From: a virus
Taxonomy: Duplodnaviria; Heunggongvirae; Uroviricota; Caudoviricetes
Length of the DNA: 12,082 nucleotides
Direction: 5' to 3' (one strand)
IMG/VR virus record: IMGVR_UViG_2737471840_000002
Span: 1-12,082 of that record
Numbering within the stretch: position 1 is the first letter of the stretch; each line of letters begins with the position of its first letter. Positions 1 through 10,217 of the stretch are shown piece after piece. The translations under genes and the position numbers were made by a program. A model generated the notes under the pieces. It had not been told where the DNA came from and made no database searches. It saw nothing but the letters and a program-made list of their open reading frames with translations.

Positions 1-61
1 ATTGAGTGGGAATGATTAACAGCTAACTCATAGCAACTCATTCCTATTCAGATACTAATTT

Positions 62-140: not shown

Positions 141-180
141 GGTGACGGTATTACCTTAAAGGTATACTCTCATACCGTCA
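141..180 (+). promoter_or_regulatory. Integrase upstream control region: operator-like site TTACCTTAAAGGTAT (151-165), -10-like TATACT (163-168), nested inverted repeats TGACGGTA (144-151)/TACCGTCA (173-180) and GGTAT-N6-ATACC (161-176)
   Basis: Direct inspection; the palindromes are exact. The operator-like site matches the TTACC-N5-GGTAA motif found elsewhere in the window at 9 of 10 positions. Confidence 0.45.
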
Positions 181-207
181 TGAAAATGGTTTCTATACGG
201 GTGAATT

Positions 208-1464
208 GTGCTTACCGATACAAAATTAAAAAACCTCAAGCCGCAGGACAAACTGTACAAGGTCTCCGATCGTGACGGGCTGTATGTAGCTGTGCTTACG
301 TCAGGCACGGTCTCGTTTCGCTACGACTACCGTATCAACGGTCGCCGCGAAACGCTGGTAATCGGGCAGTATGGGCGTGACGGTATCAGCCTGGCAGAAG
401 CGCGAGAAGAACTGATTGCTGCAAAGAAGCTGCTTAAAGCAGGCCAGTCACCGGCTGCGGCTAAACGTGACGGTATCAAAAAGATTCGTGGTGCCGAGAC
501 GTTTGCGGTACATACCGACAGTTATATGAAACACGTCATCCTGGCTGACAGTACCCGCGCAATGAAACAGGCGGTGATCGACCGTGACATACTTCCGGTT
601 CTTGGCAATAAAATGATGGCTGAAATTACCACATCGATGGTTCGTGATTTGTGTGACCGGATTGTCGAACGCGGTGGCCGGGCAACAGCAGTGCAGGCCA
701 GGGAGATCATCAGCAGCGTATACCGTCATGCCAATGACCGTGGTCATGGTTTGTTTAATCCTGCGGCTGACATTAAACCTTCGTCTATCGCCATATTTAA
801 ACCACGAGAGCGAACACTGACACCAGAAGAAATTGGCCTGTTCTTCCGCACGCTGGATGCCATTGGTGCTATGGGCACTATGAAAATGGCTTTAAAGCTG
901 GTGCTTATCACTATGGTTCGTAAAGGCGAATTCACCAATGCAACGTGGGATGAAATAGATTTTAAAAAATGGACATGGACAATTCCTTCAGACCGCATGA
1001 AGGGAAGCCGGGCGCACGTTATTTACCTGCCTAAACAGGCACAGGATATATTGGTTGGGTTGCAGATGTGCGCTGGTGGAAGTGAATATCTGGTTCCTGG
1101 TCGTTACAATTTCCGGAAGCCATTATCTAATGCCGCGCTGAACTCTCTGATCGACAGAACGGTGAAAATAATAAATGAAGATGGTGAGCATATTCAGGAC
1201 TTCACCGTACACGATATGCGCCGTACAGCAAGTACGTTGTTGCATGAGGCTGGTTATCCTTCAGACTGGATTGAAAAGGCTCTGGCACATGAGCAGAAAG
1301 GTGTGCGCGCCGTATATAACAAAGCGGAATACGCCAGACAGCGCGCCTACATGTTGCAGCAGTGGGCCGATATGATTGATTCCTGGATTGACGGGGAGCA
1401 TACGGATCTGATTCCGTTCTCCCCGTCGAAGTTTGAGAAGTGGATGGAAGACAGTAATAAATAA
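208..1464 (+). CDS. int: Tyrosine-type site-specific integrase, P4-like (N-terminal DUF4102-type arm-binding domain)
   Basis: GTG start at 208. N-terminus LTDTKLKNLKP...DGLYVAV is typical of P4-family integrases; C-terminal catalytic region has HDMRRTASTLL (R, H) and LAHEQKGVRAVYNKAEY (catalytic Tyr context). 418 aa. Confidence 0.9.
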   Translation: MLTDTKLKNLKPQDKLYKVSDRDGLYVAVLTSGTVSFRYDYRINGRRETLVIGQYGRDGISLAEAREELIAAKKLLKAGQSPAAAKRDGIKKIRGAETFAVHTDSYMKHVILADSTRAMKQAVIDRDILPVLGNKMMAEITTSMVRDLCDRIVERGGRATAVQAREIISSVYRHANDRGHGLFNPAADIKPSSIAIFKPRERTLTPEEIGLFFRTLDAIGAMGTMKMALKLVLITMVRKGEFTNATWDEIDFKKWTWTIPSDRMKGSRAHVIYLPKQAQDILVGLQMCAGGSEYLVPGRYNFRKPLSNAALNSLIDRTVKIINEDGEHIQDFTVHDMRRTASTLLHEAGYPSDWIEKALAHEQKGVRAVYNKAEYARQRAYMLQQWADMIDSWIDGEHTDLIPFSPSKFEKWMEDSNK

Positions 1465-1466
1465 TT

Positions 1467-2126
1467 CTATCCTTCCTGGACTTTGGTAAGCGTCAGATTT
1501 CCGCAGAACACTGCGCCGGTGTCGATGTACATCTGGTTTGCATACACCAGTGGGTGATGTGCTGGCGTATGACCGAAGATGAACAAATCGGCACCGGTTA
1601 TCTCCGAGACAATACCGTCCTGCGCGTCGCTAACCCGTTCACGATTCCATATCACCATTTCTTCTGGTACTGGCTTATCGAATGCGTATTCGTTGTGCGG
1701 GTAGTCTGCGTGACAGATGACGACCTTCTTATTGCCGGTAACCAGTTCGATAATCATCGGGAGGTTGGTAATCTTTGGCAGAAGGTATTTGAGTTGCACA
1801 TCCTGCTCAGAATCAAGTTGGTGCCACCATCCACCGCCGTTTGACATCCAATGTCCGAAACTTCCGCCGTTGACCAGTGCATCCAGCATCATCTGCTCAT
1901 GGTTGCCACGAACAGCTCGGAACCACGGCATAGTAATCAAATCCAGGCATTCGACGTTTTCAGCGCCGCGGTCAACAAGGTCACCAACGGAAATAAGTAA
2001 ATCGCGCGCCGGGTCGAATGAAACTTTGTCGAGTTCGTTCATCAGCAGCGTGTAGCACCCATGCAGATCGCCGACGACGAAGATATTGCACCAGTCAGCG
2101 CCATTGATGCGTTGATATAGGTTCAT
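1467..2126 (-). CDS. Lambda-type Ser/Thr protein phosphatase (PPP-family metallophosphoesterase; PrpA/PrpB/NinI-like)
   Basis: Motifs GDLHG, GDLVDRG, GNHE in canonical order; strong recalled similarity to E. coli PrpA. Start assigned to internal ATG ([12 protein letters not shown]...) at 2126, forming an ATGA overlap with the upstream gene stop; the track ORF extends to 2246 but that would overlap the methylase gene. Confidence 0.88.
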
Positions 2127-2773
2127 GCTGCACGCTCCCGCCCCTGGTTGTCTATTGGTGACACCGGAGCATTGCTGAATGCATTTGTTAATCCGCCAAT
2201 ATCCAACGCGTATCCAGGGTGTAGTTGCACTGCCGGGTCTTCGCACTGATTACCCCAAACATCGAAGCCATGAGACGACTGGCGGGCGAACAGTTCAATG
2301 CGAGAAACATCGCCTAACAATTGCACAAGTTTTTCACGAACGACATCTGGTTTTCTTGAATGCTCAAGCCGCGGTGCGGTAAATGACTGAACGATCCCTG
2401 CATTAATGCGCGGAGGTAGTTTTCCCTTTACTGCAAACAGGCAATCTTCACTATTGGCGCGAGTCATGTGTCCCATACCCATAACCAGTTTATCTGGTTG
2501 TCGACTACCACATTTTATCCACGTGAAGCCCTTCATCGTCATCAGACGGAATCCCCAGGCTTCAACAACTTTTAGTGCTTCGAGTGGTTGTGTTGGCACC
2601 CACCACATGGCCAACAGACAGTTTTCATCGGCCAAATCCCACACAGGAAGGCGGCAGATATCCAGCACACTCATAACCGGATATTTAAAACCGGCACCGC
2701 GATTACCATCTGCGGCTTTGTCCCGGTATACCCAGGGTGGATCTGCATAGATTAGTGTGTATTTCTTAGTCAT
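2123..2773 (-). CDS. MT-A70 family DNA N6-adenine methyltransferase (orphan, no cognate restriction gene visible)
   Basis: N-terminal motif LIYADPPW (DPPW catalytic motif) right after start MTKKY; ATG at 2773 preceded by GGGGTGG SD-like sequence; track ORF starts 12 nt further upstream at GTG 2785. Confidence 0.8.
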
Positions 2774-3065
2774 AAACCACCCCACAACATCCTATGCCGC
2801 TATAGTCGCCACGGCGAAGGCCGTTACCGTTTGTGATACATTGGTCCCTGCGAACCGCGATCCTTGCACGCTCAACATCACCAGAAGCAACATCCATACA
2901 CTGAAGCCAAAGGTGGGCGGCAATGCGGAACTGCCCTTTTTTCTCTCTTTCAATCGCGCGTTTTTCGATCTCTATCGCCGCAGGAGTAACGGCAACAACC
3001 TTTGAAGGGCTGCGCATTGAAACCTTGTTCATGTGATATTTTTCAAGTCGGCTTAACTTTCTCAC
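2766..3065 (-). CDS. Hypothetical protein (99 aa from GTG 3065; alternative ATG starts at 3032 or 3017)
   Basis: ORF in same orientation as flanking operon genes, overlaps methylase start by 8 nt (coupling). No motif recognised. Start uncertain. Confidence 0.5.
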   Translation of the reverse strand: MRKLSRLEKYHMNKVSMRSPSKVVAVTPAAIEIEKRAIEREKKGQFRIAAHLWLQCMDVASGDVERARIAVRRDQCITNGNGLRRGDYSGIGCCGVVYD

Positions 3066-3149
3066 TTAATCCAACCCTCTCTGAAAATTAATGCCAGCAG
3101 ATAAAGCCATGCTGAAACAGAGGCCAGGAATAAGTACCATCCTGACCAT
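3066..3149 (-). CDS. Candidate 27-aa hydrophobic micro-ORF (MVRMVLIPGLCFSMALSAGINFQRGLD)
   Basis: Not in the ORF track (too short). ATG at 3149-3147 preceded by GGAG; stop abuts GTG 3065 of the next ORF; fills most of the 109-nt gap after the AlpA-like gene. Could be chance. Confidence 0.25.
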   Translation of the reverse strand: MVRMVLIPGLCFSMALSAGINFQRGLD

Positions 3150-3174
3150 TTGCTCCAGTGCCTTAGCAGCGCAC

Positions 3175-3423
3175 TCATGCAGCGTTGCTCACAGGACGAT
3201 ATACACGTTGCTGAACAGGAGGCTTTTTACCCTGGAACTCTGCCGGGCTTGCTGCCTGACGTTCATCAAGCCAACGCTCAACTTCATCACGGTTCCATGC
3301 GCAGCGTTTATCGGTGATATACCAGCGTTTAGGAAATTCCCCTGCGCGCTCCATACGGTCGATAGTGCTCCATGACAGTGGCACCACCGCCAGGAGTTCC
3401 TTCTTACCTAATGCACCTTTCAT
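3175..3423 (-). CDS. AlpA-family phage regulatory protein (excisionase-like HTH; Phage_AlpA/MerR-like fold)
   Basis: 82 aa; the segment KKELLAVVPLSWSTIDRMERAGEFPKRWYITDKRCAWNRDEVERWLDE matches the AlpA/Xis-type winged-helix pattern (conserved W after the HTH, EV..W). RBS AGAGAGG 6 nt upstream of ATG 3423. Confidence 0.75.
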   Translation of the reverse strand: MKGALGKKELLAVVPLSWSTIDRMERAGEFPKRWYITDKRCAWNRDEVERWLDERQAASPAEFQGKKPPVQQRVYRPVSNAA

Positions 3424-3444
3424 AAATACCTCTCTTGGTTGCAG

Positions 3445-3465
3445 TGCGGCGCGCGTGGCGCCGCG
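3445..3465 (-). other. GC-only stem-loop (7-bp stem gcggcgc / gcgccgc, 5-nt loop) in the recT-alpA intergenic spacer, no U-tract
   Basis: Seen in sequence between stop of 3473-4354 gene and start of 3175-3423 gene. Confidence 0.5.
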
Positions 3466-3472
3466 GTGGTGG

Positions 3473-4354
3473 TTACATAGATGTTTCGTTTAATTCTTCC
3501 CGACGAACGCTGTAAACGTCGGTGGCTTTTGCCAGCAGTTCGTCATCATCTGAAAGTTTTTGTGCAATGTATTTGTAAGCCTTATCCAGTTCGGAGACAG
3601 TGCTGTAATTCATCGCTGCGCTGGTAAAGGCCATCAGCATTTCTTCTGGATCACGGCTATCCGCTTTACGCGTTTGCTCATCAGGCTTTTTCGCTGGTTT
3701 AGCGTTGATCAGACTGTTCATTCCCGCAGCAGTGGTCGTTTGCGGAGTAATGTCTCGCTCAACGCGCGGTGCCGTTTCCTGTAATTCGTCAGGGGTGTAA
3801 ACACCGAGAAGTACATCAGGAGCGTGCAGGCGAGCCCATCGTTTCGTGCAAAGATAGGCAAGCTGCTGGCGCGGATCCTGTTCCCACAATGGAGAGTTAC
3901 GCACTCCGGCTTGCGCCATACTGATGGTAAGCTCACGGGGTTCTGCTTCTCCTTTAAGAACTGCTGACACAGTTACCGTCAGATTCGGTGATTTATCTGT
4001 TTTGCCGTTAACATTCGACCAGTCACCGCTCCAGCGATAATTCAGGCGTGTCGCTAGCAGGCTGGAAGAGGATACGACCGCGTTTACCAACTGTGCTTCG
4101 TAGCCTAACGTTCCGTTTACCACATGCGTTTTCTGCGCCACGGCGAAAGGATTCATTCCCCACTGTGCCGCCTGCATGGTCACCGCCAGACAATCGGCAG
4201 TTTTGCCTTCAAGATGTTTCGGTACAGTCGCTTTGCTTTGTGACATCAACTCCGCGAAACGCACCAGTTGATTCATGCCCTCCGGGCTGAAGATTGCCGC
4301 AGCAGTACCTACAGTTGCGCCTGGTTGTGATGTGATTGCGATATCATTGCTCAT
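3473..4354 (-). CDS. Putative phage single-strand annealing protein / recombinase (RecT/Bet-like)
   Basis: 293 aa; immediately downstream of and ATGA-coupled to a PD-(D/E)xK exonuclease, the classic exo+SSAP pairing. Family assignment is by context and loose recall, not by a confirmed motif. Confidence 0.55.
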   Translation of the reverse strand: MSNDIAITSQPGATVGTAAAIFSPEGMNQLVRFAELMSQSKATVPKHLEGKTADCLAVTMQAAQWGMNPFAVAQKTHVVNGTLGYEAQLVNAVVSSSSLLATRLNYRWSGDWSNVNGKTDKSPNLTVTVSAVLKGEAEPRELTISMAQAGVRNSPLWEQDPRQQLAYLCTKRWARLHAPDVLLGVYTPDELQETAPRVERDITPQTTTAAGMNSLINAKPAKKPDEQTRKADSRDPEEMLMAFTSAAMNYSTVSELDKAYKYIAQKLSDDDELLAKATDVYSVRREELNETSM

Positions 4355-5172
4355 ACGTACATATCCTGTTTACGTGCCCAGTCAGGGCGTTTAATAATTT
4401 CCACTCCGCCCCACTCATCGTTGATGCGGCATTCGTGATAGGTATTCAGATCCCGGCGGAACAGAGCGTGCCCGGCATCGACATCCGGCGCATCCAGCTC
4501 GAACACGCGTACCGGATACCGACCACAATCAATGCTTTCGCTCACGGCAAGAAAGAAAAAACCATGCGGCTGACCAGTAACCTTCATTGCGCCTTCGCGG
4601 TACATTGCGTCCTGCACGTGGTAGCGGAATTCCTCGATGTGGCGTGCAAAACGGTCCATATCTGCAACCTTTTTCACGTCGACGATCACGTTGTGCTCGT
4701 TCAGCCATTTGTCTGGACGAATGCGGCACAACTCACCAGTATCTTCATCGTTCCAGTACATTGATGCTTCGCAGTAACCAGGTGCTTCCAGCATCCAGCG
4801 TGCCGCCGGGTGAGCCATTGCGCTATCACGCATCAGCTCCAGTTTCCGCCACTGCTCGGCATCAAGTACCGTAATCCCCATATCCGCCACATCACGAAGA
4901 AATGCCTCTTCGTCAGCTTTACCTTGTTTCGTCCGACGATCGAATTTCGGTGAAACAATGAAGCGTTTGTCGAACTCTCCAGGCTCCAGAAGCAGACAGT
5001 GCAATGCAGTTCCCATATCCAGTGCAGACTTTTTCTCTTCGTCTTCTGGTGCTGCCTGAACCCATTTAAGAAGCGCCGGATTCTTGGCAACCATGTCTAG
5101 TTGCGACTTACTCACGCCGTCACCGGCGTGGTAGTCTTCGTTGCTGATGTCGAAATAAATTCCCGGTTTCAT
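4351..5172 (-). CDS. PD-(D/E)xK-superfamily nuclease (phage recombination exonuclease, RecE C-terminal domain/YqaJ-like)
   Basis: 273 aa; acidic/K motif region (…NVIVDVKKVADMD…), located in recombination module; ATGA overlaps on both sides. Confidence 0.6.
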   Translation of the reverse strand: MKPGIYFDISNEDYHAGDGVSKSQLDMVAKNPALLKWVQAAPEDEEKKSALDMGTALHCLLLEPGEFDKRFIVSPKFDRRTKQGKADEEAFLRDVADMGITVLDAEQWRKLELMRDSAMAHPAARWMLEAPGYCEASMYWNDEDTGELCRIRPDKWLNEHNVIVDVKKVADMDRFARHIEEFRYHVQDAMYREGAMKVTGQPHGFFFLAVSESIDCGRYPVRVFELDAPDVDAGHALFRRDLNTYHECRINDEWGGVEIIKRPDWARKQDMYV

Positions 5173-5468
5173 GCCGCGTCCCTCTGTCCATCAAGCTGAT
5201 CCGCCAGATCCCAGCGGGCGATAATTGCCATTGCCTCTCGCCGATAGGCATCCATCAGTTCTTCGAACTCAGGGCTGTCTTTAGCAGCCTCCAGTACTTC
5301 CTGACGAACGCCTTTGACTGTTACAACGTCGAAAGTTGAGGACAGTTGATGAAGTCGGATGCTCTCAATCAGTTCAACTTGTCGGTCATATAGCTGTTCT
5401 GACAGGCGGTAGTCCTTGTCGAATGCCAGCATGATTTTTTGAAGATTTTTCTGCTGATTAACGTTCAT
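5169..5468 (-). CDS. Hypothetical protein (99 aa from ATG 5468; track gives 101 aa from GTG 5474)
   Basis: RBS GAGGTG upstream of ATG 5468; stop overlaps exonuclease start (ATGA). Confidence 0.6.
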   Translation of the reverse strand: MNVNQQKNLQKIMLAFDKDYRLSEQLYDRQVELIESIRLHQLSSTFDVVTVKGVRQEVLEAAKDSPEFEELMDAYRREAMAIIARWDLADQLDGQRDAA

Positions 5469-5475
5469 ACCCACC

Positions 5476-6510
5476 TCAATATTTGATATACGCGTCCTGC
5501 ACTTTGCCGCCAGCGATAGCCAACATTGCTTTCTGCGCGAATTCTTCGGGAATGCCTTGGGCTATCAGATCTGCGATTACTCTGCGGTTAACGGTACGGC
5601 GATGCTCTTTATCTGCAGCTCGGCGCGCTTCTTCGTCGGCGATACGCTTCTGTTCGTCAAGGCGGGCTTTTTCTGCCGCCTCTTGGCGTCGGCGTTCCTC
5701 GGCAACGGCTTCTTCTTTTTCGCGTCGTGCGCGCTGCTCTGCTTCAATTCGCTGACGTTCTGCTACTTCAGCACGTGCTTTTTCTTCCGCCGCCAGGCGT
5801 GCCGCAGCCTCAATTTCAGCTTTCGCTTTTTGTTCAGCTTCGAGCCTGGCCTGTTCAGCAGCTTCCCGGCGGATATTCTCTTCTCGCTCAATGCGCGCTT
5901 TTTCCTCCGCTTCTTTGCGAAGTCGCTCCAGCTCAGCGGCTTCATGCTCGCGTTTTTGAGCTACTGCGAGTGATTCTTCCAGTTTCTGGATGGTTGAATC
6001 CTTGGCTACTCCAGCTTCTGCTGCGTACTCCTGCCAACTTTCATCAAGTGCTACTGATTTAGCCTCTTGAATTCGTTCCTGAATATCAGATGATGGCAAG
6101 TAGTTTCCGGAGAGATCGATCACGTCAGCTAGTGCTCGCAAATTTGTCAGGCGTTGTTGCAGTGCTTCAGTGCGTAATTTCTCAGCATTTTCCCACTCGG
6201 TGAGTGGGCGGCGTACTTCATCACGAAGACGATCGCATTCGGTTACGAAGCGTCGTAACTCTGCTTCAACTACTTTCGGCTGTTCTTTCAGGCGTTTCAG
6301 ATAATCACGTCCTGGTTTTTCTACCGCTGTTTTACTTCTTGAAACCTTCGCAGCCAGAGATGCAATGCGCTTTCTGCCTTTGTCTGTGCTAATGTCAGGC
6401 ACTTCATTAACACCTTCACGGATCTGCTCGAGAAACTTTTCCAGCCCTTTTTCAACGTAAATTCTTGGTGCCATGTCTGGTGTGATTTCGATGATTGACA
6501 ATTCACTCAT
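5476..6510 (-). CDS. Hypothetical phage protein with long E/A/R/K-rich coiled-coil (low-complexity) segment
   Basis: 344 aa; residues about 185-300 are an (E-A-x-x-K/R-A-R)n-like charged helix; globular N- and C-terminal parts. Function not recognised. Confidence 0.7.
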   Translation of the reverse strand: MSELSIIEITPDMAPRIYVEKGLEKFLEQIREGVNEVPDISTDKGRKRIASLAAKVSRSKTAVEKPGRDYLKRLKEQPKVVEAELRRFVTECDRLRDEVRRPLTEWENAEKLRTEALQQRLTNLRALADVIDLSGNYLPSSDIQERIQEAKSVALDESWQEYAAEAGVAKDSTIQKLEESLAVAQKREHEAAELERLRKEAEEKARIEREENIRREAAEQARLEAEQKAKAEIEAAARLAAEEKARAEVAERQRIEAEQRARREKEEAVAEERRRQEAAEKARLDEQKRIADEEARRAADKEHRRTVNRRVIADLIAQGIPEEFAQKAMLAIAGGKVQDAYIKY

Positions 6511-6518
6511 TTGCTAAC

Positions 6519-6668
6519 CTACTCCCATATCTCGTTATCGTTGGCCACATCGCGAGCTTCTTTGCTGACGAAAGCCCACTTAATGCCTTCCTGTAAGGTG
6601 CGGAACTTCCAGCTCATGAATCCGCATGCAGTAACGCAGTACCAACCGTTGATGATTTTCCACTGCAT
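6519..6668 (-). CDS. Candidate small protein, 49 aa (MQWKIINGWYCVTACGFMSWKFRTLQEGIKWAFVSKEARDVANDNEIWE), first gene after pL-like promoter
   Basis: Not in ORF track (<60 aa). ATG 6668-6666 with GAGG 9 nt upstream; stop 8 nt before start of 344-aa gene. Confidence 0.45.
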   Translation of the reverse strand: MQWKIINGWYCVTACGFMSWKFRTLQEGIKWAFVSKEARDVANDNEIWE

Positions 6669-6687
6669 AACTTGTTACCTCGGTCTG

Positions 6688-6702
6688 TTACCGTTGAGGT
6701 AA
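6688..6702. promoter_or_regulatory. Operator-like palindrome TTACC-GTTGA-GGTAA (OL-proximal, overlapping pL -10/+1)
   Basis: Exact 5+5 inverted repeat with 5-bp spacer. Confidence 0.6.
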
Positions 6703-6730
6703 TAATTATGCGTATATGGTTTGATGTCAA
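6700..6730 (-). promoter_or_regulatory. pL-like promoter: -35 TTGACA (plus coords 6725-6730), AT-rich -10 (about 6702-6708)
   Basis: Consensus -35 hexamer on minus strand, 16-17 bp spacer to AATTAT/TAATTA; flanked by two operator palindromes. Confidence 0.5.
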
Positions 6731-6749
6731 TAGATATGAGTTAAAAAAA

Positions 6750-6764
6750 TTACCAGTTAGGTAA
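6750..6764. promoter_or_regulatory. Operator-like palindrome TTACC-AGTTA-GGTAA (OL-distal)
   Basis: Exact 5+5 inverted repeat with 5-bp spacer. Confidence 0.6.
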
Positions 6765-6776
6765 TCGAATAGGCAA

Positions 6777-6800
6777 TAAAAAAGCCGCCATAAGGCGGCT
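6777..6800 (-). terminator. Rho-independent terminator for repressor gene (stem agccgcc/ggcggct, loop, then 6 U on minus strand)
   Basis: Seen in sequence 22 nt downstream of repressor stop. Confidence 0.75.
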
Positions 6801-6821
6801 TACTTACTGAAAAATATGGTT

Positions 6822-7406
6822 TTATTGTTTGTTTTTTTCGTTCTGGTTGATGACAAATTCAATGTAACTTTCGATCTTTGCTTTCTCGGTTTCGGGTAAC
6901 AATGCGTAGCGCGAGCGATCATAGTTGATGGTCGCAGGGTCGTGCGGGTGAATCAGTAATTCATAGCCGTGACGCCCGAATGCGGATGCAACATTCTCCA
7001 GGGTGGAAATGGAAACGCTGACCTCATTGTTTAACAGGCGGCTGATTGTCACCTGGGCGACGCCGGATGCGCGGTGTAGTTTTCCCTGCGTTGAAAGGTC
7101 GCGGCTTTCGCTCATCCAGCGTTCCAGGTTGTGAGCCGCCAGCTGACCAATGTCGCTTGGGCCGACAGGCTGAAAACCTTCCTGAGAAAGCGAGCGATCG
7201 ATATCAAGCCAGTTACGTGGTTTATTGGCGGCAGCTTCAATTTTTCGCGCAACCTGGTCGCCGATAACCTTCTTGCCAAGAGCCCAGCGGTTTACCAGAT
7301 TTGCCTGAGTTCCAAGTTTTTCTGCCATCCGCGTCTGAACACCATTGAATTCACGGTCGATCAAGTCGTTGAGATTTTGCCTGCGGACGTCTTGGATACT
7401 TTTCAT
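6822..7406 (-). CDS. CI-like prophage repressor with two XRE-type helix-turn-helix domains and no LexA-like S24 peptidase domain
   Basis: 194 aa. HTH-1 about residues 20-60 (QTRMAEKLGTQANLVNRWALGKKVI), HTH-2 about residues 110-150 (ASGVAQVTISRLLNNEVSVSISTLENVA). Position and orientation equivalent to lambda cI (divergent from cro-like gene, followed by terminator and pL). No S24 motif visible. Confidence 0.65.
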   Translation of the reverse strand: MKSIQDVRRQNLNDLIDREFNGVQTRMAEKLGTQANLVNRWALGKKVIGDQVARKIEAAANKPRNWLDIDRSLSQEGFQPVGPSDIGQLAAHNLERWMSESRDLSTQGKLHRASGVAQVTISRLLNNEVSVSISTLENVASAFGRHGYELLIHPHDPATINYDRSRYALLPETEKAKIESYIEFVINQNEKNKQ

Positions 7407-7429
7407 TTTCTGGAAAATCGCCTCATATA

Positions 7430-7448
7430 TGAATCAGTAGATGATTCA
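7430..7448. promoter_or_regulatory. Perfect 7-5-7 palindrome TGAATCA-gtaga-TGATTCA, 24-42 bp upstream of repressor start
   Basis: Seen in sequence; distinct from the TTACC/GGTAA motif. Confidence 0.45.
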
Positions 7449-7461
7449 ATTTAAAGCAATA

Positions 7462-7524
7462 TTACCCAACAGGTAAATGCACCCCATAGGTAACTATCCT
7501 TGATTTTTGTTACCTTATGGGTGA
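7462..7524. promoter_or_regulatory. OR-like tripartite operator: TTACC-CAACA-GGTAA (7462-7476), gcACC-CCATA-GGTAA (7479-7493), TTACC-TTATG-GGTgA (7510-7524)
   Basis: Three copies or near-copies of the same palindrome between the divergent repressor and Cro-like genes. Confidence 0.65.
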
Positions 7525-7535
7525 ATATTTATTAT
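7507..7535 (+). promoter_or_regulatory. pR-like promoter: -35 TTGTTA (7507-7512), 17-bp spacer, -10 TATTAT (7530-7535)
   Basis: Hexamer match and spacing; overlapped by operator 7510-7524. Confidence 0.45.
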
Positions 7536-7560
7536 CTGAAATAAATATCAGGCAATAGCT

Positions 7561-7791
7561 ATGAGCGATAACGAACATTTCGATTTCAAAAAGCACTGGC
7601 TTGCACTTACTCCGGATGAGCGTGAAGCCTTCGCACAGGAAGCCGGAACGACGAGTCACTATATCCAGACTCACTTAACAGGTAAGCGCAAAATGCCAGG
7701 TAAAGTATTGATGAATGGGCTTTTTAAAGCCTGTAAAACAAGACAATGGCTGCGCTCAAAAGCAGAACTGGCATACTTCTTCTACTCATGA
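7561..7791 (+). CDS. Cro-like small HTH regulator (putative)
   Basis: 76 aa, divergent from repressor across operator region; segment EREAFAQEAGTTSHYIQTHLTGKRK resembles Cro/YdaS-type HTH. Weak RBS. Confidence 0.5.
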   Translation: MSDNEHFDFKKHWLALTPDEREAFAQEAGTTSHYIQTHLTGKRKMPGKVLMNGLFKACKTRQWLRSKAELAYFFYS

Positions 7792-7813
7792 TATCCAGCT
7801 ACAACCCTCTGTA

Positions 7814-7838
7814 GACCGCCACCCGGCGGTCTTTTCAT
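7814..7838 (+). terminator. Rho-independent terminator (stem gaccgcc/ggcggtc, loop accc, then TTTT) downstream of Cro-like gene
   Basis: Seen in sequence. Confidence 0.65.
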
Positions 7839-7846
7839 ATCTATTC

Positions 7847-7861
7847 GTACCTCAAAGGTAA
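7847..7861. promoter_or_regulatory. Operator-like palindrome GTACC-TCAAA-GGTAA (9 of 10 match)
   Basis: Immediately after terminator, upstream of candidate -35 TTGATC (7879-7884). Confidence 0.45.
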
Positions 7862-7941
7862 TAAAAAACCAAATATGGTTGATCTTTTTTTTGTGTCAGC
7901 ACAAAATGACCGTAATCCCAATACTAATAGCAGGGCTTACC

Positions 7942-8142
7942 ATGGAAATCATTACACGTATTGATGCCGCAAAGCGCGGACTTAAACGCTACTACACCGG
8001 AAAAACATGTAAGCACGGACATGACAGTGAACGCTGGGTTTACAACGGACACTGTGTTGAGTGCACCATGGAATCAAACCGTCGTATCAGGGCAGAGATT
8101 AAGCAGATCATGATTAATTCCTCCCCACAACATTCAAGCTGA
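7942..8142 (+). CDS. Small Cys/His-rich putative zinc-ribbon protein (66 aa from ATG 7942; possible longer form from ATG 7906 with hydrophobic N-terminus)
   Basis: CKHGH...HCVEC arrangement; occupies the cII-like position between cro-like gene and replication genes. Start uncertain. Confidence 0.5.
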   Translation: MEIITRIDAAKRGLKRYYTGKTCKHGHDSERWVYNGHCVECTMESNRRIRAEIKQIMINSSPQHSS

Positions 8143-8157
8143 TAGCGGAGATTAATC

Positions 8158-8973
8158 ATGAGCAGACATGCAACAGATTGGGCCTGGGAGACAGATCCAG
8201 GTAGCTCGTCATTAAAGCTCATACTGCTCTCGATGGCTGACAGAGCCGATGAATATAACCTCTGCTACCCCAGCATAGAACGCCTCGTTAAAGACACTTG
8301 CCTGAACAAAAAAACCGTGCAGGCCGGGCTTATATCGCTCATGAAAATGGGGCTTATTTCAGATACCGGAGAGAGAAAGGGAGCGACGAAAAGAGTGCGG
8401 GTTTTCTCTCTTAATATAACCAAAAACGGGAACATTAAAGGCAACCGGGAAGGGGGTAATGAACCCGAAAACGGTAATGTTACCGAAAACGGGAATATAC
8501 CCAAAAACGGGATGTTGAATGATCCCAAAAACGGGATGTTGAATGATCCCAAAAACGGGATCCAGAACCAGTCATATAACCAGTCATTTAACCAAGAGAG
8601 GGAGAGCAGGACAAAAAACGGGGATTCTGTGCATCATGACCCCGGCGCAAACAACGCCGTGATGAATAACTTTGTTCCTCCTGGTGGGCCAGGGCAATTA
8701 GGCAAATTTGTCATGCATGAACAATGGCAGCCATCAGATGACTTTCTTCGGAAAAGCTCATTGCAGGGGATCTACCTGGACAGTCTGCCAACGGCACAGG
8801 AACTTGCAGAGTTCAGAATTTACTGGATGGCTGAGGGTAAGGCATACCATCAGGCACAGTGGGAGCAGAAGCTGGCAAGGCGGCTGCAGATTAGCAGACA
8901 GAAGCAATCAACATTACCTGATAACAACGTTCCGCACTGGAACAGCCCTGAAGCATGGGAGGATTTCTTGTGA
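8158..8973 (+). CDS. Replication initiator / replisome organizer (lambda O-like: N-terminal HTH DNA-binding domain, iteron-encoded linker, C-terminal DnaT-like domain)
   Basis: 271 aa; N-terminus LKLILLSMADRADEYNLCYPSIERLVKDT is HTH-like (replication-initiator type); the central NG(N/M)-rich repeats are encoded by the iterons; directly followed by and GTGA-coupled to a P-like gene. Confidence 0.75.
   Translation: MSRHATDWAWETDPGSSSLKLILLSMADRADEYNLCYPSIERLVKDTCLNKKTVQAGLISLMKMGLISDTGERKGATKRVRVFSLNITKNGNIKGNREGGNEPENGNVTENGNIPKNGMLNDPKNGMLNDPKNGIQNQSYNQSFNQERESRTKNGDSVHHDPGANNAVMNNFVPPGGPGQLGKFVMHEQWQPSDDFLRKSSLQGIYLDSLPTAQELAEFRIYWMAEGKAYHQAQWEQKLARRLQISRQKQSTLPDNNVPHWNSPEAWEDFL
8419..8624. 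repeat. Origin-like iteron array: at least 6 copies of (A/T)CC(C/G)AAAACGG(G/T)A at 8419, 8464, 8482, 8499, 8523, 8547 (spacing 18-24 bp) plus a degenerate copy near 8611
   Basis: Direct repeats counted in sequence; last three copies are exact 24-bp tandem repeats (cccaaaaacgggatgttgaatgat). Embedded in the initiator gene as in lambda ori. Confidence 0.8.
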
Positions 8974-9755
8974 ACAACGTTTTTACCGCGATACAAAACC
9001 GTGACGGAGAAGCCCTTTCTCGCATGTCAGGTTATGAGCATCAGTACACCAACAATGACAACGTGGTGAACATGTCAGCAGAGAGGCTTGTTGATGCCCT
9101 TTTCAAACAGCTGAAACAACTGTTTCCGGCGGCAGTGGTAACCAACCTGAAGACGCCAGAGCAGGAAGTTGCTGCAAAACAGCAGTGGATTGCTGCGTTT
9201 GCCGAAGGGGGGATCCGAACCCGTGAACAGGTTTCTGCTGGTATGCGCCACGCCCGCGCCAGTGAGTCTCCGTTCTGGCCGTCGCCAGGGCAATTCATCA
9301 AGTGGTGTAAAGACAGCAAGATGGTTCTTGGCGTCACCATTGACGATGTGATGGCGGAGTTTCACCGGTACAGCAAGGAAAAAAGTTTATATCCTGGTGG
9401 TCCCGAAAGATTCCCGTGGCGGCATCCGGTTATGTACTGGGTCGTATGTGATACCCGCCGTGCAATGTATCAGCGCCAGCTTAGCGAGATTGAGGTTGAG
9501 AAACACGCGCGCAGGCTGCTCGATGATTGGGCGAAAAAGGTGGCTTCCGGACAGCGGATACCCGATCCGGTGATCAGCATACAGGCAAAGTCAGAGCCCA
9601 TGAGTACACCTCCGGACACAGGGAGAGACGTTTACCATCCACCAGGGCGAAGTTTCGGGTGCATGCCTAACGCCGCCACCCTTGGGGGAATAACACCGGC
9701 GCAGTGGCTGATGGAGGAATACAGGCGGGGAAAGGCGGCAGGATTTATCAAGTAA
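8970..9755 (+). CDS. Replication protein P-like helicase loader (lambda P family)
   Basis: Recalled similarity to lambda P: GMRHARASESPFWPSPGQFIKWC vs lambda GMRVARRQNRPFLPSPGQFVAWC; GTG start at 8970 with GGGAGGA SD 6 nt upstream, overlapping O-like stop (GTGA). Track ORF begins at ATG 8955. Confidence 0.85.
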   Translation: MNNVFTAIQNRDGEALSRMSGYEHQYTNNDNVVNMSAERLVDALFKQLKQLFPAAVVTNLKTPEQEVAAKQQWIAAFAEGGIRTREQVSAGMRHARASESPFWPSPGQFIKWCKDSKMVLGVTIDDVMAEFHRYSKEKSLYPGGPERFPWRHPVMYWVVCDTRRAMYQRQLSEIEVEKHARRLLDDWAKKVASGQRIPDPVISIQAKSEPMSTPPDTGRDVYHPPGRSFGCMPNAATLGGITPAQWLMEEYRRGKAAGFIK

Positions 9756-9792
9756 TACCAGCGCGATAGCGCATTTTTTTACGCCTTAACAA

Positions 9793-9807
9793 TTACCTAT
9801 TGGGTAA
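9793..9807. promoter_or_regulatory. Operator-like palindrome TTACC-TATTG-GGTAA
   Basis: Exact match to motif, upstream of promoter-like hexamers. Confidence 0.55.
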
Positions 9808-9826
9808 TAAAATATTCTAAATTCTA

Positions 9827-9855
9827 TTGATTTCGTGTCTTATGTGGTTTTTAAT
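9827..9855 (+). promoter_or_regulatory. Promoter-like: -35 TTGATT (9827-9832), 17-bp spacer, -10 TTTAAT (9850-9855)
   Basis: Hexamers and spacing; sandwiched between two operator-like palindromes in the same way as the pL-like promoter. Confidence 0.45.
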
Positions 9856-9869
9856 TACCTCAGAGGTAA
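9855..9869. promoter_or_regulatory. Operator-like palindrome TTACC-TCAGA-GGTAA overlapping the RBS of the downstream gene
   Basis: Exact match; GAGG of the site doubles as SD for ATG 9873. Confidence 0.55.
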
Positions 9870-9872
9870 ATC

Positions 9873-10217
9873 ATGAGAAAACAGATACAGGCTCTTGGTC
9901 GACTCAAAACAGGTCAGATGAACAAAACAGAATCTGCGTATTGCCAGCACCTTGAGCTGCGTAAACGTGCAGGAGAAATCGTCTGGTATCGATTTGAGGG
10001 TATCAAGCTGCGGTTAGCTGACAACACGTTCTATACGCCCGATTTTGCTGTGATGCTCGCCACCGGCGAGATGGAACTGCACGAAGTGAAAGGTTTCTGG
10101 ACCGACGACGCCAGGGTGAAAACCAAAGTCGCCGCAGATCAGTATCCGTTCCGAATCATCGGGGTAACGGTTAAACCAAAGAAAGCAGGTGGTGGCTGGA
10201 ACATCGAAGAGTTCTGA
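9873..10217 (+). CDS. DUF1064-like phage protein (114 aa)
   Basis: Recalled family resemblance (MRKQIQALGRLK...YRFEGIKLRLADNTFYTPDF...HEVKGFWTDDARVK). Not verified by search. Confidence 0.55.
   Translation: MRKQIQALGRLKTGQMNKTESAYCQHLELRKRAGEIVWYRFEGIKLRLADNTFYTPDFAVMLATGEMELHEVKGFWTDDARVKTKVAADQYPFRIIGVTVKPKKAGGGWNIEEF

What the first reader, a model, noticed from the sequence alone, without database searches (positions are those of the whole stretch)
151..9869. A single 15-bp palindrome, TTACC-N5-GGTAA, marks at least nine sites at four or five separate promoters
Exact or near-exact copies sit at 151-165 (upstream of int, 9/10), 6688-6702 and 6750-6764 (flanking the pL-like promoter), 7462-7476, 7479-7493 and 7510-7524 (OR-like, between repressor and Cro-like genes), 7847-7861 (9/10, after the cro terminator) and 9793-9807 and 9855-9869 (flanking a promoter before the DUF1064-like gene). 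A fully specified 5+5 palindrome is expected about 0.01 times by chance in 12 kb, and every copy is intergenic. This implies the prophage repressor (or Cro) controls not only pL/pR as in lambda but also an internal promoter beyond the replication genes and possibly the integrase promoter. That is a broader immunity regulon than the lambda paradigm.
Basis: seen in the sequence. Interest (0 to 1): 0.7.

Follow-up and report, generated by a model that had tools for sequence, protein, structure and literature searches.

The report
Repressor operators of an epsilon15-like prophage
The repeated palindrome TTACC-N5-GGTAA is real and is very probably the binding site of this E. coli prophage's repressor at nearly every phage promoter, but the same sites are already annotated in the related Salmonella phage epsilon15, so the finding is sound and not new.

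Summary
TTACC-N5-GGTAA occurs 5 times exactly (0.01 expected) and 3 times at 9/10. The ninth site, 7479, is only 8/10. All nine are intergenic.

The window is the guaA-side end of a phiV10/epsilon15-type (Uetakevirus) prophage, about 98% identical to sequenced phages. Its 194-aa repressor is a full-length homologue of the SPC32H repressor Rep (PDB 5D50), reported to bind palindromic DNA as a tetramer.

The same motif sits at matching positions in phages of E. coli, Enterobacter, Klebsiella and Salmonella. Half-site columns are invariant in 84/90 cases, against 13/45 for the spacer. A complete prophage carries 15 sites, one at the head of nearly every transcription unit.

It is not new: the epsilon15 GenBank record already labels seven such sites "protein_bind, repressor", including orthologues of the pL pair and the site beyond the replication genes.

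Details I could not find documented:
- A fixed cassette (operator, 19 bp, -35, 17 bp, -10, operator; centres 62 bp apart) is reused at pL, at the post-replication promoter and, in degenerate form, at a third promoter.
- The operator does not change across the genus although Rep diverges to 42% identity.

The int-upstream site is ambiguous. No binding was tested here.

The parts
1..17 (+). att core (attL) at the 3' end of host guaA; this is the left prophage boundary
   Evidence: The sequence attgagtgggaatgatt equals the attP/attB core reported for ZX5, phiV10 and epsilon15 (PMC9782041). guaA directly precedes the homologous prophage in E. coli ETEC4090.
151..165 (.). 9/10 site TTACC-TTAAA-GGTAT upstream of int. 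It is a possible operator overlapping a TATACT -10-like hexamer (163-168). It is also nested in a larger inverted repeat (143-151 / 172-180).
   Evidence: The same GGTAT mismatch is present in all six phages aligned, but the whole region is 88% conserved. The epsilon15 record annotates an Int arm site and an RNase III site at this position. Assignment is uncertain.
208..1464 (+). Tyrosine integrase (P4-type)
   Evidence: Pfam Arm-DNA-bind_3 plus Phage_integrase; phiV10p31 homologue.
6688..6702 (.). pL downstream operator (exact). Its first base on the minus strand is the last base of the -10.
6702..6730 (-). pL-like promoter: TTGACA (6730-6725), 17 bp, AATTAT (6707-6702)
   Evidence: Best promoter match in the window, 10/12. 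The -35 is conserved in five phages.
6750..6764 (.). pL upstream operator (exact; a full 17-mer ATTACC-N5-GGTAAT). Its centre lies 62 bp from the centre of the 6688 site.
   Evidence: The orthologue is annotated 'protein_bind repressor' in epsilon15.
6822..7406 (-). Rep, the 194-aa prophage repressor: an N-terminal HTH DNA-binding domain plus a C-terminal HTH_3-like domain with no S24 peptidase
   Evidence: PDB 5D50_A, E = 4e-42 over residues 1-190. Pfam. 100% identical to the vB_EcoP_ZX5 and phiV10 repressor over residues 1-194 (tblastn); the ZX5 paper also reports the two as the same sequence, and its overexpression blocked lytic growth (PMC9782041).
7462..7476 (.). OR site 1 (exact)
7479..7493 (.). 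OR site 2 (8/10, GCACC...GGTAA), 17 bp from site 1
   Evidence: An exact copy occupies the homologous position in SPC32H and epsilon15 (alignment), and BUCT711 has exact sites at the same 17-bp spacing.
7510..7524 (.). OR site 3 (9/10, GGTGA), lying inside the pR-like core promoter (-35 TTGATT 7500-7505 or TTGTTA 7507-7512)
7561..7791 (+). 76-aa Cro-like HTH protein
   Evidence: phrog_35 'transcriptional repressor', E = 5.7e-13. 58-84% identical across the genus, with an invariant AGTTSHYIQ.HLT segment.
7847..7861 (.). 9/10 site (GTACC) after the cro terminator. It serves as the upstream operator of a third promoter cassette.
   Evidence: The right half GGTAAT is invariant in five phages and the left half is xxACC.
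7879..7921 (+). Inferred promoter P2: TTGATC (7879-7884), 17 bp, CAAAAT (7902-7907), followed by a degenerate downstream operator TGACCGTAATCCCAA (7907-7921)
   Evidence: Conserved block in five phages. It aligns in register with the pL and P3 cassettes. This is an inference; no transcription start site data exist.
9761..9780 (+). Rho-independent terminator after the lambda-P-like replication gene
   Evidence: Annotated in the phiV10 record at the homologous position. Conserved GCGC...GCGC plus a T-run.
9793..9807 (.). P3 upstream operator (exact; full 17-mer)
   Evidence: The orthologue is annotated 'protein_bind repressor' in epsilon15 at 35906-35922.
9827..9855 (+). Inferred promoter P3: TTGATT (9827-9832), 17 bp, TTTAAT (9850-9855)
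   Evidence: Read from the sequence. It has the same register as pL in nine cassettes from four phages. The scanning tool instead proposed TTAACA/TAAAAT at 9786-9813, with the operator in the spacer.
9855..9869 (.). P3 downstream operator (exact). Its right half, GAGGTAA, also supplies the Shine-Dalgarno sequence of the DUF1064 gene (ATG at 9873).

Best explanation
The sites are the operators of the prophage repressor Rep (6822-7406, minus strand). Rep belongs to the SPC32H/epsilon15 repressor family.

Inferred binding mode. Two N-terminal HTH domains read the two TTACC half-sites. The half-site centres are 10 bp apart, so both lie on the same face of the DNA.

Placement, as shown by the sequence. 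Each operator overlaps or brackets a sigma-70-type promoter.
- At pL and at the promoter after the replication genes (P3), one operator starts on the last base of the -10 and so covers the transcription start. A second operator lies exactly 62 bp upstream, about six helical turns away.
- A third promoter, downstream of the cro terminator, keeps the upstream operator and only a decayed downstream one.
- Three operators lie between rep and the cro-like gene.

Inferred mechanism. SPC32H Rep is reported to bind DNA as a tetramer with two DNA-binding dimers. One tetramer could therefore bridge a 62-bp pair and clamp the promoter.

Regulon. In complete relatives the same operator heads the terminase, portal, antirepressor/tailspike, lysis and int units. 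Rep would therefore silence nearly the whole genome directly.

Induction, inferred from relatives. Release would come through a LexA-controlled antirepressor, Ant, and not through repressor self-cleavage. The cro-like protein may share some of these sites.
For: - Statistics: 5 exact sites against 0.01 expected; 8 against 0.23 at <=1 mismatch.
- Identity of the element: about 98% identical to phiV10, phiv142-3 and other Uetakeviruses.
- Rep homology: PDB 5D50/5D4Z, E = 4e-42, full length. A secondary source states that SPC32H Rep binds palindromic DNA as a tetramer (PMC9638917). Overexpression of the ZX5 repressor, which is 100% identical to the window's Rep over residues 1-194, abolished lytic transcripts (PMC9782041).
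- Prior annotation: the epsilon15 record labels seven such sites as repressor-binding.
- Genome-wide counts at <=1 mismatch: epsilon15 15, phiv142-3 15, SPC32H 18, BUCT711 13, with 0.36-0.63 expected. Tyrion also has 15, with no shuffle estimate.
- Complete prophage: 15 sites, none in the flanking host DNA.
- Footprint: half-site columns invariant in 84/90, spacer 13/45, other intergenic columns 299/629.
- Cassette: aligns almost without gaps in nine copies.
- Recognition helix: the segment NLVNRW is invariant while Rep overall falls to 42% identity.
- Distant phages: Pseudomonas PseuP_224 and Moraxella Mcat9 share only the Rep N-terminal domain. In PseuP_224 I saw no gene resembling the Uetakevirus cro-like protein by eye; Mcat9's neighbouring gene was not examined. 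Both carry TTACC-type palindromes beside their repressor genes.
- Induction route: an Ant homologue (87% identical, PDB 5D50_E) with a perfect LexA box is present in phiv142-3.
Against: - No binding or transcription data exist for this phage.
- I could not read the primary SPC32H or epsilon15 papers, so I have not seen the exact sequence bound by Rep in vitro. The epsilon15 features are predictions.
- The cro-like protein is even better conserved (76-84% identical in three of the four relatives, 58% in BUCT711) and has an invariant HTH, so covariation within the genus cannot separate Rep from Cro.
- The strongest OR site (7462) lies on the rep side and not on pR. That is the opposite of lambda's affinity order, so the logic of the OR switch is not understood.
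- The P2 and P3 promoters are consensus-level predictions. For P3 the tool preferred a different promoter.
- The int site sits in a region conserved as a whole and overlaps other annotated features.
Confidence: 0.85

Rival explanations
1. The 76-aa Cro-like protein (7561-7791) is the main or only reader of the motif, acting as a lytic-phase repressor. Rep would then bind something else.
For: The Cro-like HTH segment is invariant across the genus, matching the invariant half-sites. In lambda-type switches Cro and CI share operators (established knowledge).
Against: SPC32H Rep is reported to bind palindromic sites (PMC9638917). Two distant phages have a Rep-type N-terminal domain and carry the same half-sites; in PseuP_224 no cro-like homologue was apparent by eye, and Mcat9's neighbouring gene was not examined. 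Sites at late and lysis promoters make sense for a lysogenic silencer. Shared binding by both proteins is quite possible (about 0.4); binding by Cro alone is unlikely.
Confidence: 0.05
2. The motif is an activator site or promoter element for middle or late transcription, for example bound by the PerC-like or AlpA-like regulators encoded leftward of pL, and not a repressor operator.
For: Single copies sit upstream of late operons (terminase, portal, lysis) in relatives. No Q-like late regulator was noticed.
Against: In the cassettes one copy covers the -10 and +1 positions, which is a repressing position. Copies cluster around the repressor gene itself. The same half-sites occur in the two distant phages that share only the Rep N-terminal domain; I did not check whether those phages encode PerC- or AlpA-like regulators.
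Confidence: 0.04
3. The site at 151-165 alone is not an operator. It belongs to the attP arm (an Int arm-type or IHF site) or to an RNA hairpin processed by RNase III, and it resembles the motif only through local symmetry.
For: The epsilon15 record annotates an integrase site and an RNase III site at this position. The site is nested in a 9-bp inverted repeat, TGACGGTAT/ATACCGTCA. The whole int-upstream region is 88% conserved, so conservation of the site itself says little.
Against: A 9/10 match has a prior of about 0.2 per 12 kb. Within the site the N5 spacer varies (TTAAA, CTAAA, ATTAC) while both half-sites stay fixed. The single mismatch creates a TATACT -10 hexamer, as expected for an operator overlapping a promoter.
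Confidence: 0.35
4. The repeated cassettes are conserved mainly as recombination linkers at module boundaries of mosaic phages, and protein binding is incidental.
For: The P3 cassette is conserved although the gene behind it differs: DUF1064 in the window, SPC32H (annotated 'putative restriction endonuclease') and BUCT711, RuvC-like in epsilon15 and Tyrion.
Against: Selection acts on the 5+5 half-site bases specifically, while the spacer and flanks drift. A homology linker would not show that pattern.
Confidence: 0.02

Closest known systems
Predicted repressor-binding sites of Salmonella phage epsilon15 (GenBank AY150271.2, 'protein_bind / repressor / lysogeny' features; Kropinski et al. 2007, not readable here)
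   Same: The TTACC-N5-GGTAA core is identical. Orthologous positions are annotated for the pL pair (32554, 32616) and for the site after the replication genes (35906). Sites are dispersed, including before late genes.
   Different: The epsilon15 record lists only seven strict 16-17-bp sites. It omits the three OR sites, the second P3 site and the lysis site found here. The epsilon15 Rep is only 42% identical. epsilon15 has three pL-region sites where the window has two.
Rep-Ant switch of Salmonella phage SPC32H (PDB 5D50, 5D4Z; Kim & Ryu 2013; Kim et al. 2016)
   Same: Rep is homologous over its full length. The operator motif and its layout are the same. A close E. coli relative of the window phage carries an Ant homologue behind a LexA box.
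   Different: Rep is 42% identical overall while Ant is 87% identical. Binding and induction have not been tested for the E. coli phage. The ant gene lies outside this window.
Lambda CI/Cro with tripartite OR and OL
   Same: The repressor and cro-like genes are divergent, with three palindromic operators between them. A leftward promoter also carries operators.
   Different: The repressor has no S24 autopeptidase domain. Operators also occur at six or more further transcription units. Promoter-bracketing pairs are spaced 62 bp apart, unlike lambda's adjacent triplets. The operator is invariant across the genus, unlike the heteroimmune lambdoid phages.
Mycobacteriophage L5 gp71 'stoperators' and the plasmid RP4 KorA/KorB global regulons (from my own knowledge)
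   Same: One repressor has many dispersed sites that silence most of a mobile element's genome.
   Different: L5 sites are asymmetric, depend on orientation and act on elongation within transcribed regions. The sites here are palindromes placed at promoters. KorA and KorB are unrelated proteins.

Membership tests
Uetakevirus (epsilon15/SPC32H-type) Rep operator set | Palindrome identical to the sites annotated as repressor-binding in epsilon15 (ATTACC-N5-GGTAAT core) | tested here: met
   All seven annotated epsilon15 features coincide with TTACC-N5-GGTAA matches. The window has 5 exact, 3 at 9/10 and 1 at 8/10.
Uetakevirus (epsilon15/SPC32H-type) Rep operator set | Adjacent repressor homologous to SPC32H Rep, with an N-terminal HTH and a C-terminal tetramerisation/Ant-binding domain | tested here: met
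   phmmer against PDB 5D50_A, E = 4e-42, residues 1-190; 5D4Z (C-terminal domain), E = 4e-20. BLASTP 42% identity.
Uetakevirus (epsilon15/SPC32H-type) Rep operator set | Syntenic placement of sites in other members of the genus | tested here: met
   The pL pair, OR triple, post-cro site, P3 pair and int site align in register in phiV10, Tyrion, SPC32H and epsilon15. BUCT711 was aligned for the post-cro and int sites, and its pL pair, OR pair and P3 pair match by position.
Uetakevirus (epsilon15/SPC32H-type) Rep operator set | Partner antirepressor Ant under LexA control | tested here: inconclusive
   The ant gene is not inside the window. In phiv142-3, whose immunity region is about 98% identical, Orf7 is 87% identical to SPC32H Ant (PDB 5D50_E, E = 1.4e-46) and follows a perfect LexA box. 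No LexA box above chance was found in the window.
Uetakevirus (epsilon15/SPC32H-type) Rep operator set | Physical binding of Rep to the sites and repression of the flanked promoters | not testable with these tools
   This needs EMSA, footprinting, ChIP or reporter assays. The only indirect support is that overexpression of the ZX5 repressor, 100% identical to the window's Rep, abolishes lytic transcripts (PMC9782041).
Lambda-type CI/Cro immunity switch | Repressor with a LexA-like S24 autopeptidase C-terminal domain cleaved on RecA activation | tested here: not met
   Pfam finds only HTH families and no Peptidase_S24. The C-terminal domain matches the SPC32H Rep tetramerisation domain.
Lambda-type CI/Cro immunity switch | Operators confined to tripartite OL and OR | tested here: not met
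   OR has three sites. pL has two, 62 bp apart. Further sites lie at 151, 7847, 9793 and 9855, and in relatives at the late, lysis and ant promoters.
Mycobacteriophage L5-type stoperators | Asymmetric, orientation-dependent sites inside transcribed regions | tested here: not met
   The sites are perfect palindromes located at or upstream of promoters.
LexA (SOS) boxes | CTGT-N8-ACAG consensus | tested here: not met
   The motif is different. LexA-like matches in the window are at chance level: 7 against 3.9 expected at 1 mismatch, none of them intergenic at a promoter.

The most novel reading that the evidence does not exclude
Two things are not excluded by my evidence, and I could not find either documented.

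(a) Each 77-bp cassette may be a promoter clamp. One Rep tetramer would bridge two operators exactly 62 bp apart, about six helical turns, and enclose the -35 and -10 in a micro-loop. The cassette is copied to several promoters and has been kept in register across phages of four host genera.

(b) Immunity in this genus may not be encoded in operator recognition at all. The half-sites and the recognition helix are invariant while the rest of Rep drifts to 42% identity. If so, E. coli, Salmonella, Klebsiella and Enterobacter Uetakeviruses would cross-repress one another, and specificity would lie in induction, that is, in the pairing of the Rep C-terminal domain with antirepressors.

Together with direct operators on every late operon, this would describe a temperate phage run by a single-tier repressor with no late-gene cascade.
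Probability: 0.3. Interest if true: 0.5.

Novelty: already known. Interest (0 to 1): 0.22.

Why it matters
The finding matters mostly as annotation. About one E. coli genome in ten (562 of 5426) carries this immunity region, and in the E. coli phage records whose feature tables I read (phiV10, phiv142-3) and the ETEC4090 prophage the operators are not marked. Knowing them corrects gene starts: PGAP places the small-terminase start upstream of two operators. It also defines the promoters of phiV10-type phages, which I recall being used as O157 reporter and typing phages.

Biologically, the system illustrates silencing of a whole genome by one repressor that is released by a LexA-controlled antirepressor. 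The fixed 62-bp bracketing of promoters and the genus-wide invariance of the operator are testable leads for people who work on the SPC32H Rep-Ant system. The core claim adds nothing beyond what the epsilon15 and SPC32H work already implies.

Tried and rejected
- Primary papers. I tried to read Kropinski 2007 (PMC2698709, PMID 17825342), Perry 2009, Kim & Ryu 2013 (PMC3807360) and Kim 2016 (PMC4983836). None is held. I recall a published 17-bp consensus ATTACCWDWWNGGTAAT, but a text search for it found nothing, so I do not cite it as fact. Searches for Uetakevirus or SPC32H operators gave only secondary mentions.
- LexA control within the window. Rejected: matches are at chance level.
- An RNA-level role, with a UUACC/GGUAA hairpin hiding the Shine-Dalgarno sequence at 9863-9867. 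Rejected as the main function: half of the copies lie upstream of the -35 and are not transcribed from that promoter, and selection acts symmetrically on both halves.
- A rep maintenance promoter (PRM-like). Several weak candidates exist on the minus strand at 7449-7477, none convincing, so I left it open.
- The five additional 2-mismatch hits in coding DNA. Dismissed as chance.
- Covariation of operator with repressor inside the genus. Uninformative, because both the Rep helix and the Cro-like HTH are invariant. I used distant phages instead.
- Technical point. Loci L002, L003 and L006 never appeared in the Python sandbox, so the whole-genome scans of phiv142-3 and epsilon15 were done with the DNA search only.

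Full report
**1. The observation**

The pattern TTACC-N5-GGTAA occurs exactly at 6688, 6750, 7462, 9793 and 9855. That is 5 matches against 0.01 expected, and none of 200 dinucleotide-preserving shuffles reached 5. With one mismatch allowed, 151 (GGTAT), 7510 (GGTGA) and 7847 (GTACC) are added: 8 sites against 0.23 expected.

The ninth site claimed, 7479-7493, reads GCACC-CCATA-GGTAA. It matches 8/10, so it is not "near-exact". Five further 2-mismatch hits (1739, 5120, 5577, 6189, 7671) lie in coding sequence, and their number fits the chance expectation of 3.2.

All nine sites of the finding are intergenic by the annotation of near-identical records.

**2. What the window is**

Bases 1-17 (attgagtgggaatgatt) are the attachment core reported for vB_EcoP_ZX5, phiV10 and epsilon15 at the 3' end of guaA (PMC9782041). 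In E. coli ETEC4090 guaA directly precedes the same prophage.

The immunity region is about 98% identical to phiV10, phiv142-3, PAS61, the O157 typing phages 9 and 10 and others, all of genus Uetakevirus. It is present in 562 of 5426 complete E. coli genomes.

Gene order in the window:
- int (208-1464)
- a leftward early operon that includes RecE/RecT-like genes
- the 194-aa repressor (6822-7406, minus strand)
- a 76-aa Cro-like protein (7561-7791)
- a small ORF (7942-8142)
- a DnaT-like gene and a lambda-P-like replication gene
- a DUF1064 gene (9873-10217) and accessory genes

**3. The protein next to the sites**

The 194-aa protein matches the repressor Rep of Salmonella phage SPC32H over its whole length: PDB 5D50 chain A, E = 4e-42, residues 1-190. 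The C-terminal domain structure 5D4Z matches at E = 4e-20. BLASTP gives 42% identity.

Pfam finds HTH families only and no S24 peptidase domain. According to a secondary source, SPC32H Rep binds palindromic DNA as a tetramer. The two DNA-binding dimers are formed across the two dimers of the tetramer, and a tetrameric antirepressor Ant takes the complex apart (PMC9638917; also PMC9986798).

The ZX5 repressor, which is 100% identical to the window's Rep over residues 1-194 (tblastn; the ZX5 paper also reports it as the same sequence as phiV10's), removed free phage when overexpressed. It lowered endolysin and holin transcripts by more than 99.9% (PMC9782041). That paper does not define operators.

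**4. Prior annotation**

The GenBank record of epsilon15 (AY150271.2) carries seven features labelled "protein_bind, repressor, lysogeny": 12-27, 2931-2947, 19895-19911, 32479-32494, 32554-32570, 32616-32632 and 35906-35922. Each coincides with a TTACC-N5-GGTAA match.

The features at 32554 and 32616 are the orthologues of the window's pL pair. The feature at 35906 is the orthologue of 9793, the site "beyond the replication genes". The features at 12, 2931 and 19895 precede the terminase, portal-region and tailspike genes.

A dispersed repressor regulon broader than lambda's has therefore already been proposed for the type phage of this genus. I could not read the accompanying paper or the two SPC32H papers, so I cannot say how much of what follows they already describe.

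**5. Comparative evidence that the sites are functional**

Matches at <=1 mismatch number 15 in epsilon15, 15 in phiv142-3, 18 in SPC32H and 13 in the Klebsiella phage BUCT711, against 0.36-0.63 expected. The Enterobacter phage Tyrion also has 15, from a script count without a shuffle estimate.

In the complete guaA prophage of ETEC4090 all 15 matches lie inside the prophage, and none lies in about 9 kb of flanking host DNA. They stand in front of int, pL, OR, the DUF1064 unit, small terminase, the portal unit, the BRO-type antirepressor, the small ant/tailspike divergent region and the lysis cassette. That covers nearly every transcription unit.

I aligned the five intergenic regions of the window with those of four or five relatives. 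Half-site columns were invariant in 84 of 90 cases. The N5 spacer was invariant in 13 of 45, and other intergenic columns in 299 of 629. Fisher tests gave p about 1e-18 for half-sites against other columns and about 1e-14 against the spacer. The columns and sequences are not fully independent, so these p values are indicative only. The pattern is two 5-bp blocks under selection, one helical turn apart, with a free spacer. That is what a dimeric HTH protein would produce.

**6. Who reads the motif**

Within the genus, a short N-terminal segment of Rep (NLVNRW, residues 36-41) is invariant while the protein as a whole diverges to 42-45% identity. The Cro-like protein also has an invariant HTH segment and is 58-84% identical. 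Covariation inside the genus therefore cannot decide between the two.

Two distant phages help. They share only the Rep N-terminal domain, which is fused there to an S24-peptidase domain.
- Pseudomonas phage PseuP_224 (39% identity over the N-terminal domain). It has TTACC-N4-GGTAA sites immediately upstream and downstream of its cI gene: 8 matches at <=2 mismatches against 0.95 expected.
- Moraxella phage Mcat9 (36% identity). It has TTACC-N5-GGTAA-like sites in the intergenic regions on both sides of its repressor operon: 10 matches against 1.75 expected.

In PseuP_224 neither annotated neighbouring ORF, nor an unannotated ORF I read by eye upstream of cI, resembled the Uetakevirus 76-aa protein; I ran no formal comparison. 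I did not examine Mcat9's neighbouring gene. It does not exclude that the Cro-like protein shares the sites, as Cro does in lambda.

**7. Anatomy and likely mechanism**

*The pL promoter.* The best sigma-70 match in the window is the leftward promoter: TTGACA (6730-6725), 17 bp, AATTAT (6707-6702). The last base of its -10 is the first base of the operator at 6702-6688. The second operator (6764-6750) is centred 62 bp upstream.

*The P3 promoter.* The same geometry recurs after the terminator that follows the P-like gene: operator 9793-9807, TTGATT (9827-9832), 17 bp, TTTAAT (9850-9855), operator 9855-9869. Nine such cassettes from four phages align in register, with a single 1-bp insertion in BUCT711 pL. 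The layout is operator, 19 bp, cTATTGAy, 17 bp, -10, operator. The pair spacing is 62 bp in eight cassettes and 63 bp in one.

*A third promoter, P2.* A third copy of the layout lies after the cro terminator. It has the 9/10 operator at 7847-7861, TTGATC (7879-7884), 17 bp and CAAAAT (7902-7907). A decayed downstream site follows (TGACCGTAATCCCAA, 7907-7921). The whole block is conserved in five phages.

*The OR region.* Between rep and the cro-like gene, three sites are spaced 17 and 31 bp apart, or 17 and 30 bp in the Salmonella phages. The third lies inside the pR-like core promoter.

*What follows.* The sequence shows that operators cover the start sites of pL and P3 and the core of pR. 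What follows in this paragraph is inferred:
- Rep blocks RNA polymerase at these promoters.
- One tetramer, with its two DNA-binding dimers, bridges the 62-bp pairs on one face of the helix (62 / 10.5 = 5.9 turns).
- Induction proceeds through a LexA-controlled Ant. In phiv142-3 an 85-aa protein 87% identical to SPC32H Ant (PDB 5D50_E, E = 1.4e-46) follows a perfect LexA box, CTGTATAAATATACAG, and a Rep operator. The window itself contains no LexA box above chance.

*Open points.* The transcription start sites are predictions. For P3 the scanning tool preferred TTAACA/TAAAAT at 9786-9813, which would put the operator in the spacer. The strongest OR site lies on the rep side, and I could not assign a convincing maintenance promoter for rep.

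**8. The int-upstream site (151-165)**

The 9/10 match, with the same GGTAT half, is present in all six phages. Its N5 spacer varies (TTAAA, CTAAA, ATTAC). The mismatch creates a TATACT -10-like hexamer at 163-168, as expected if an operator overlaps an int promoter.

Against this, the whole region is 88% conserved. The site is nested in a 9-bp inverted repeat (143-151 / 172-180). The epsilon15 record places an Int arm site and an RNase III site there. I rate it as an operator at roughly 0.6.

**9. Comparison with known systems, and novelty**

The sites meet every testable criterion for the Uetakevirus Rep operator set: same motif, homologous repressor and syntenic placement. They do not fit a lambda CI system, because there is no S24 domain and the operators are not confined to OL and OR. 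They do not fit L5-type stoperators, because the sites are palindromic and sit at promoters.

The sequence itself is a near-copy of published phages. I therefore rate the finding as already known and of low interest.

Three details might go beyond the literature, which I could not check:
- the reused 77-bp promoter/operator cassette with fixed 62-bp spacing;
- the decayed third cassette;
- the invariance of the operator and the recognition helix across phages of four host genera, which suggests that immunity specificity does not lie in DNA recognition.

Noticed in passing
window 8455-8561: An array of iteron-like direct repeats lies inside the DnaT-like replication gene. It has three 18-bp units followed by 2.6 perfect 24-bp units, and all share CCCnAAAACGG. 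This is probably the phage replication origin, placed like the lambda ori iterons inside gene O.
   Followed up: partly
L008 (Pseudomonas phage PseuP_224) 2922-2974 and 3797-3836; L009 (Moraxella phage Mcat9) 2357-2492 and 4110-4167: Two distant phages have repressors that share only the N-terminal HTH domain with the window's Rep, fused there to an S24 peptidase. Both have TTACC-type palindromes flanking their repressor genes. The Pseudomonas phage uses a 4-bp spacer where the window uses 5 bp. This suggests a widespread N-terminal domain family with a conserved half-site specificity.
   Followed up: partly
L002 (phiv142-3) 4758-5106; L004 (SPC32H) 19676-20027: The small antirepressor Ant is 87% identical between the E. 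coli and Salmonella phages, yet its target Rep is only 42% identical, about 40% in the Ant-binding C-terminal domain. A perfect LexA box, CTGTATAAATATACAG, precedes the E. coli ant. The E. coli phages also carry a second, BRO-type antirepressor that is itself flanked by Rep operators.
   Followed up: partly
L010 (E. coli ETEC4090) 19585-19663: PGAP starts the small-terminase gene at 19585, so two operator copies (19631, 19649) fall 'inside' the coding sequence. In phiV10-type and epsilon15-type records the gene is about 80 nt shorter, which puts the operators just upstream of the real start. The annotated start is probably wrong.
   Followed up: no
window 9855-9875: The right half of the downstream P3 operator (GAGGTAA) also supplies the Shine-Dalgarno sequence of the next gene, whose ATG lies 4 nt after the operator. 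This arrangement holds in all five phages aligned although the gene differs: DUF1064 in the window, phiV10 and SPC32H, RuvC-like in epsilon15 and Tyrion.
   Followed up: partly
L003/L006 (epsilon15) 33341-33402, 35969-35983, 24704-24718: The epsilon15 record annotates seven repressor sites but leaves out the three OR sites, the second P3 site and the site upstream of the lysis cassette. For four of these five the cause seems to be a strict 17-bp palindrome search, since each lacks one flanking A or T or carries a core mismatch (alignments); I did not read the flanks of the lysis site.
   Followed up: no
E. coli NADC1036, records NZ_CP076267.1 (38,709 bp) and NZ_CP076264.1: The same assembly holds the prophage in the chromosome and as a separate 38.7-kb record. 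This probably reflects spontaneously excised circular phage DNA assembled as a 'plasmid'.
   Followed up: no
window 1467-3065, compared with L001 (phiV10) 4395-5495: The genes between int and the AlpA-like gene differ from phiV10. The closest chromosomal relative carries a serine/threonine phosphatase and an MT-A70 methyltransferase there. This is ordinary mosaicism in the leftward accessory region.
   Followed up: no
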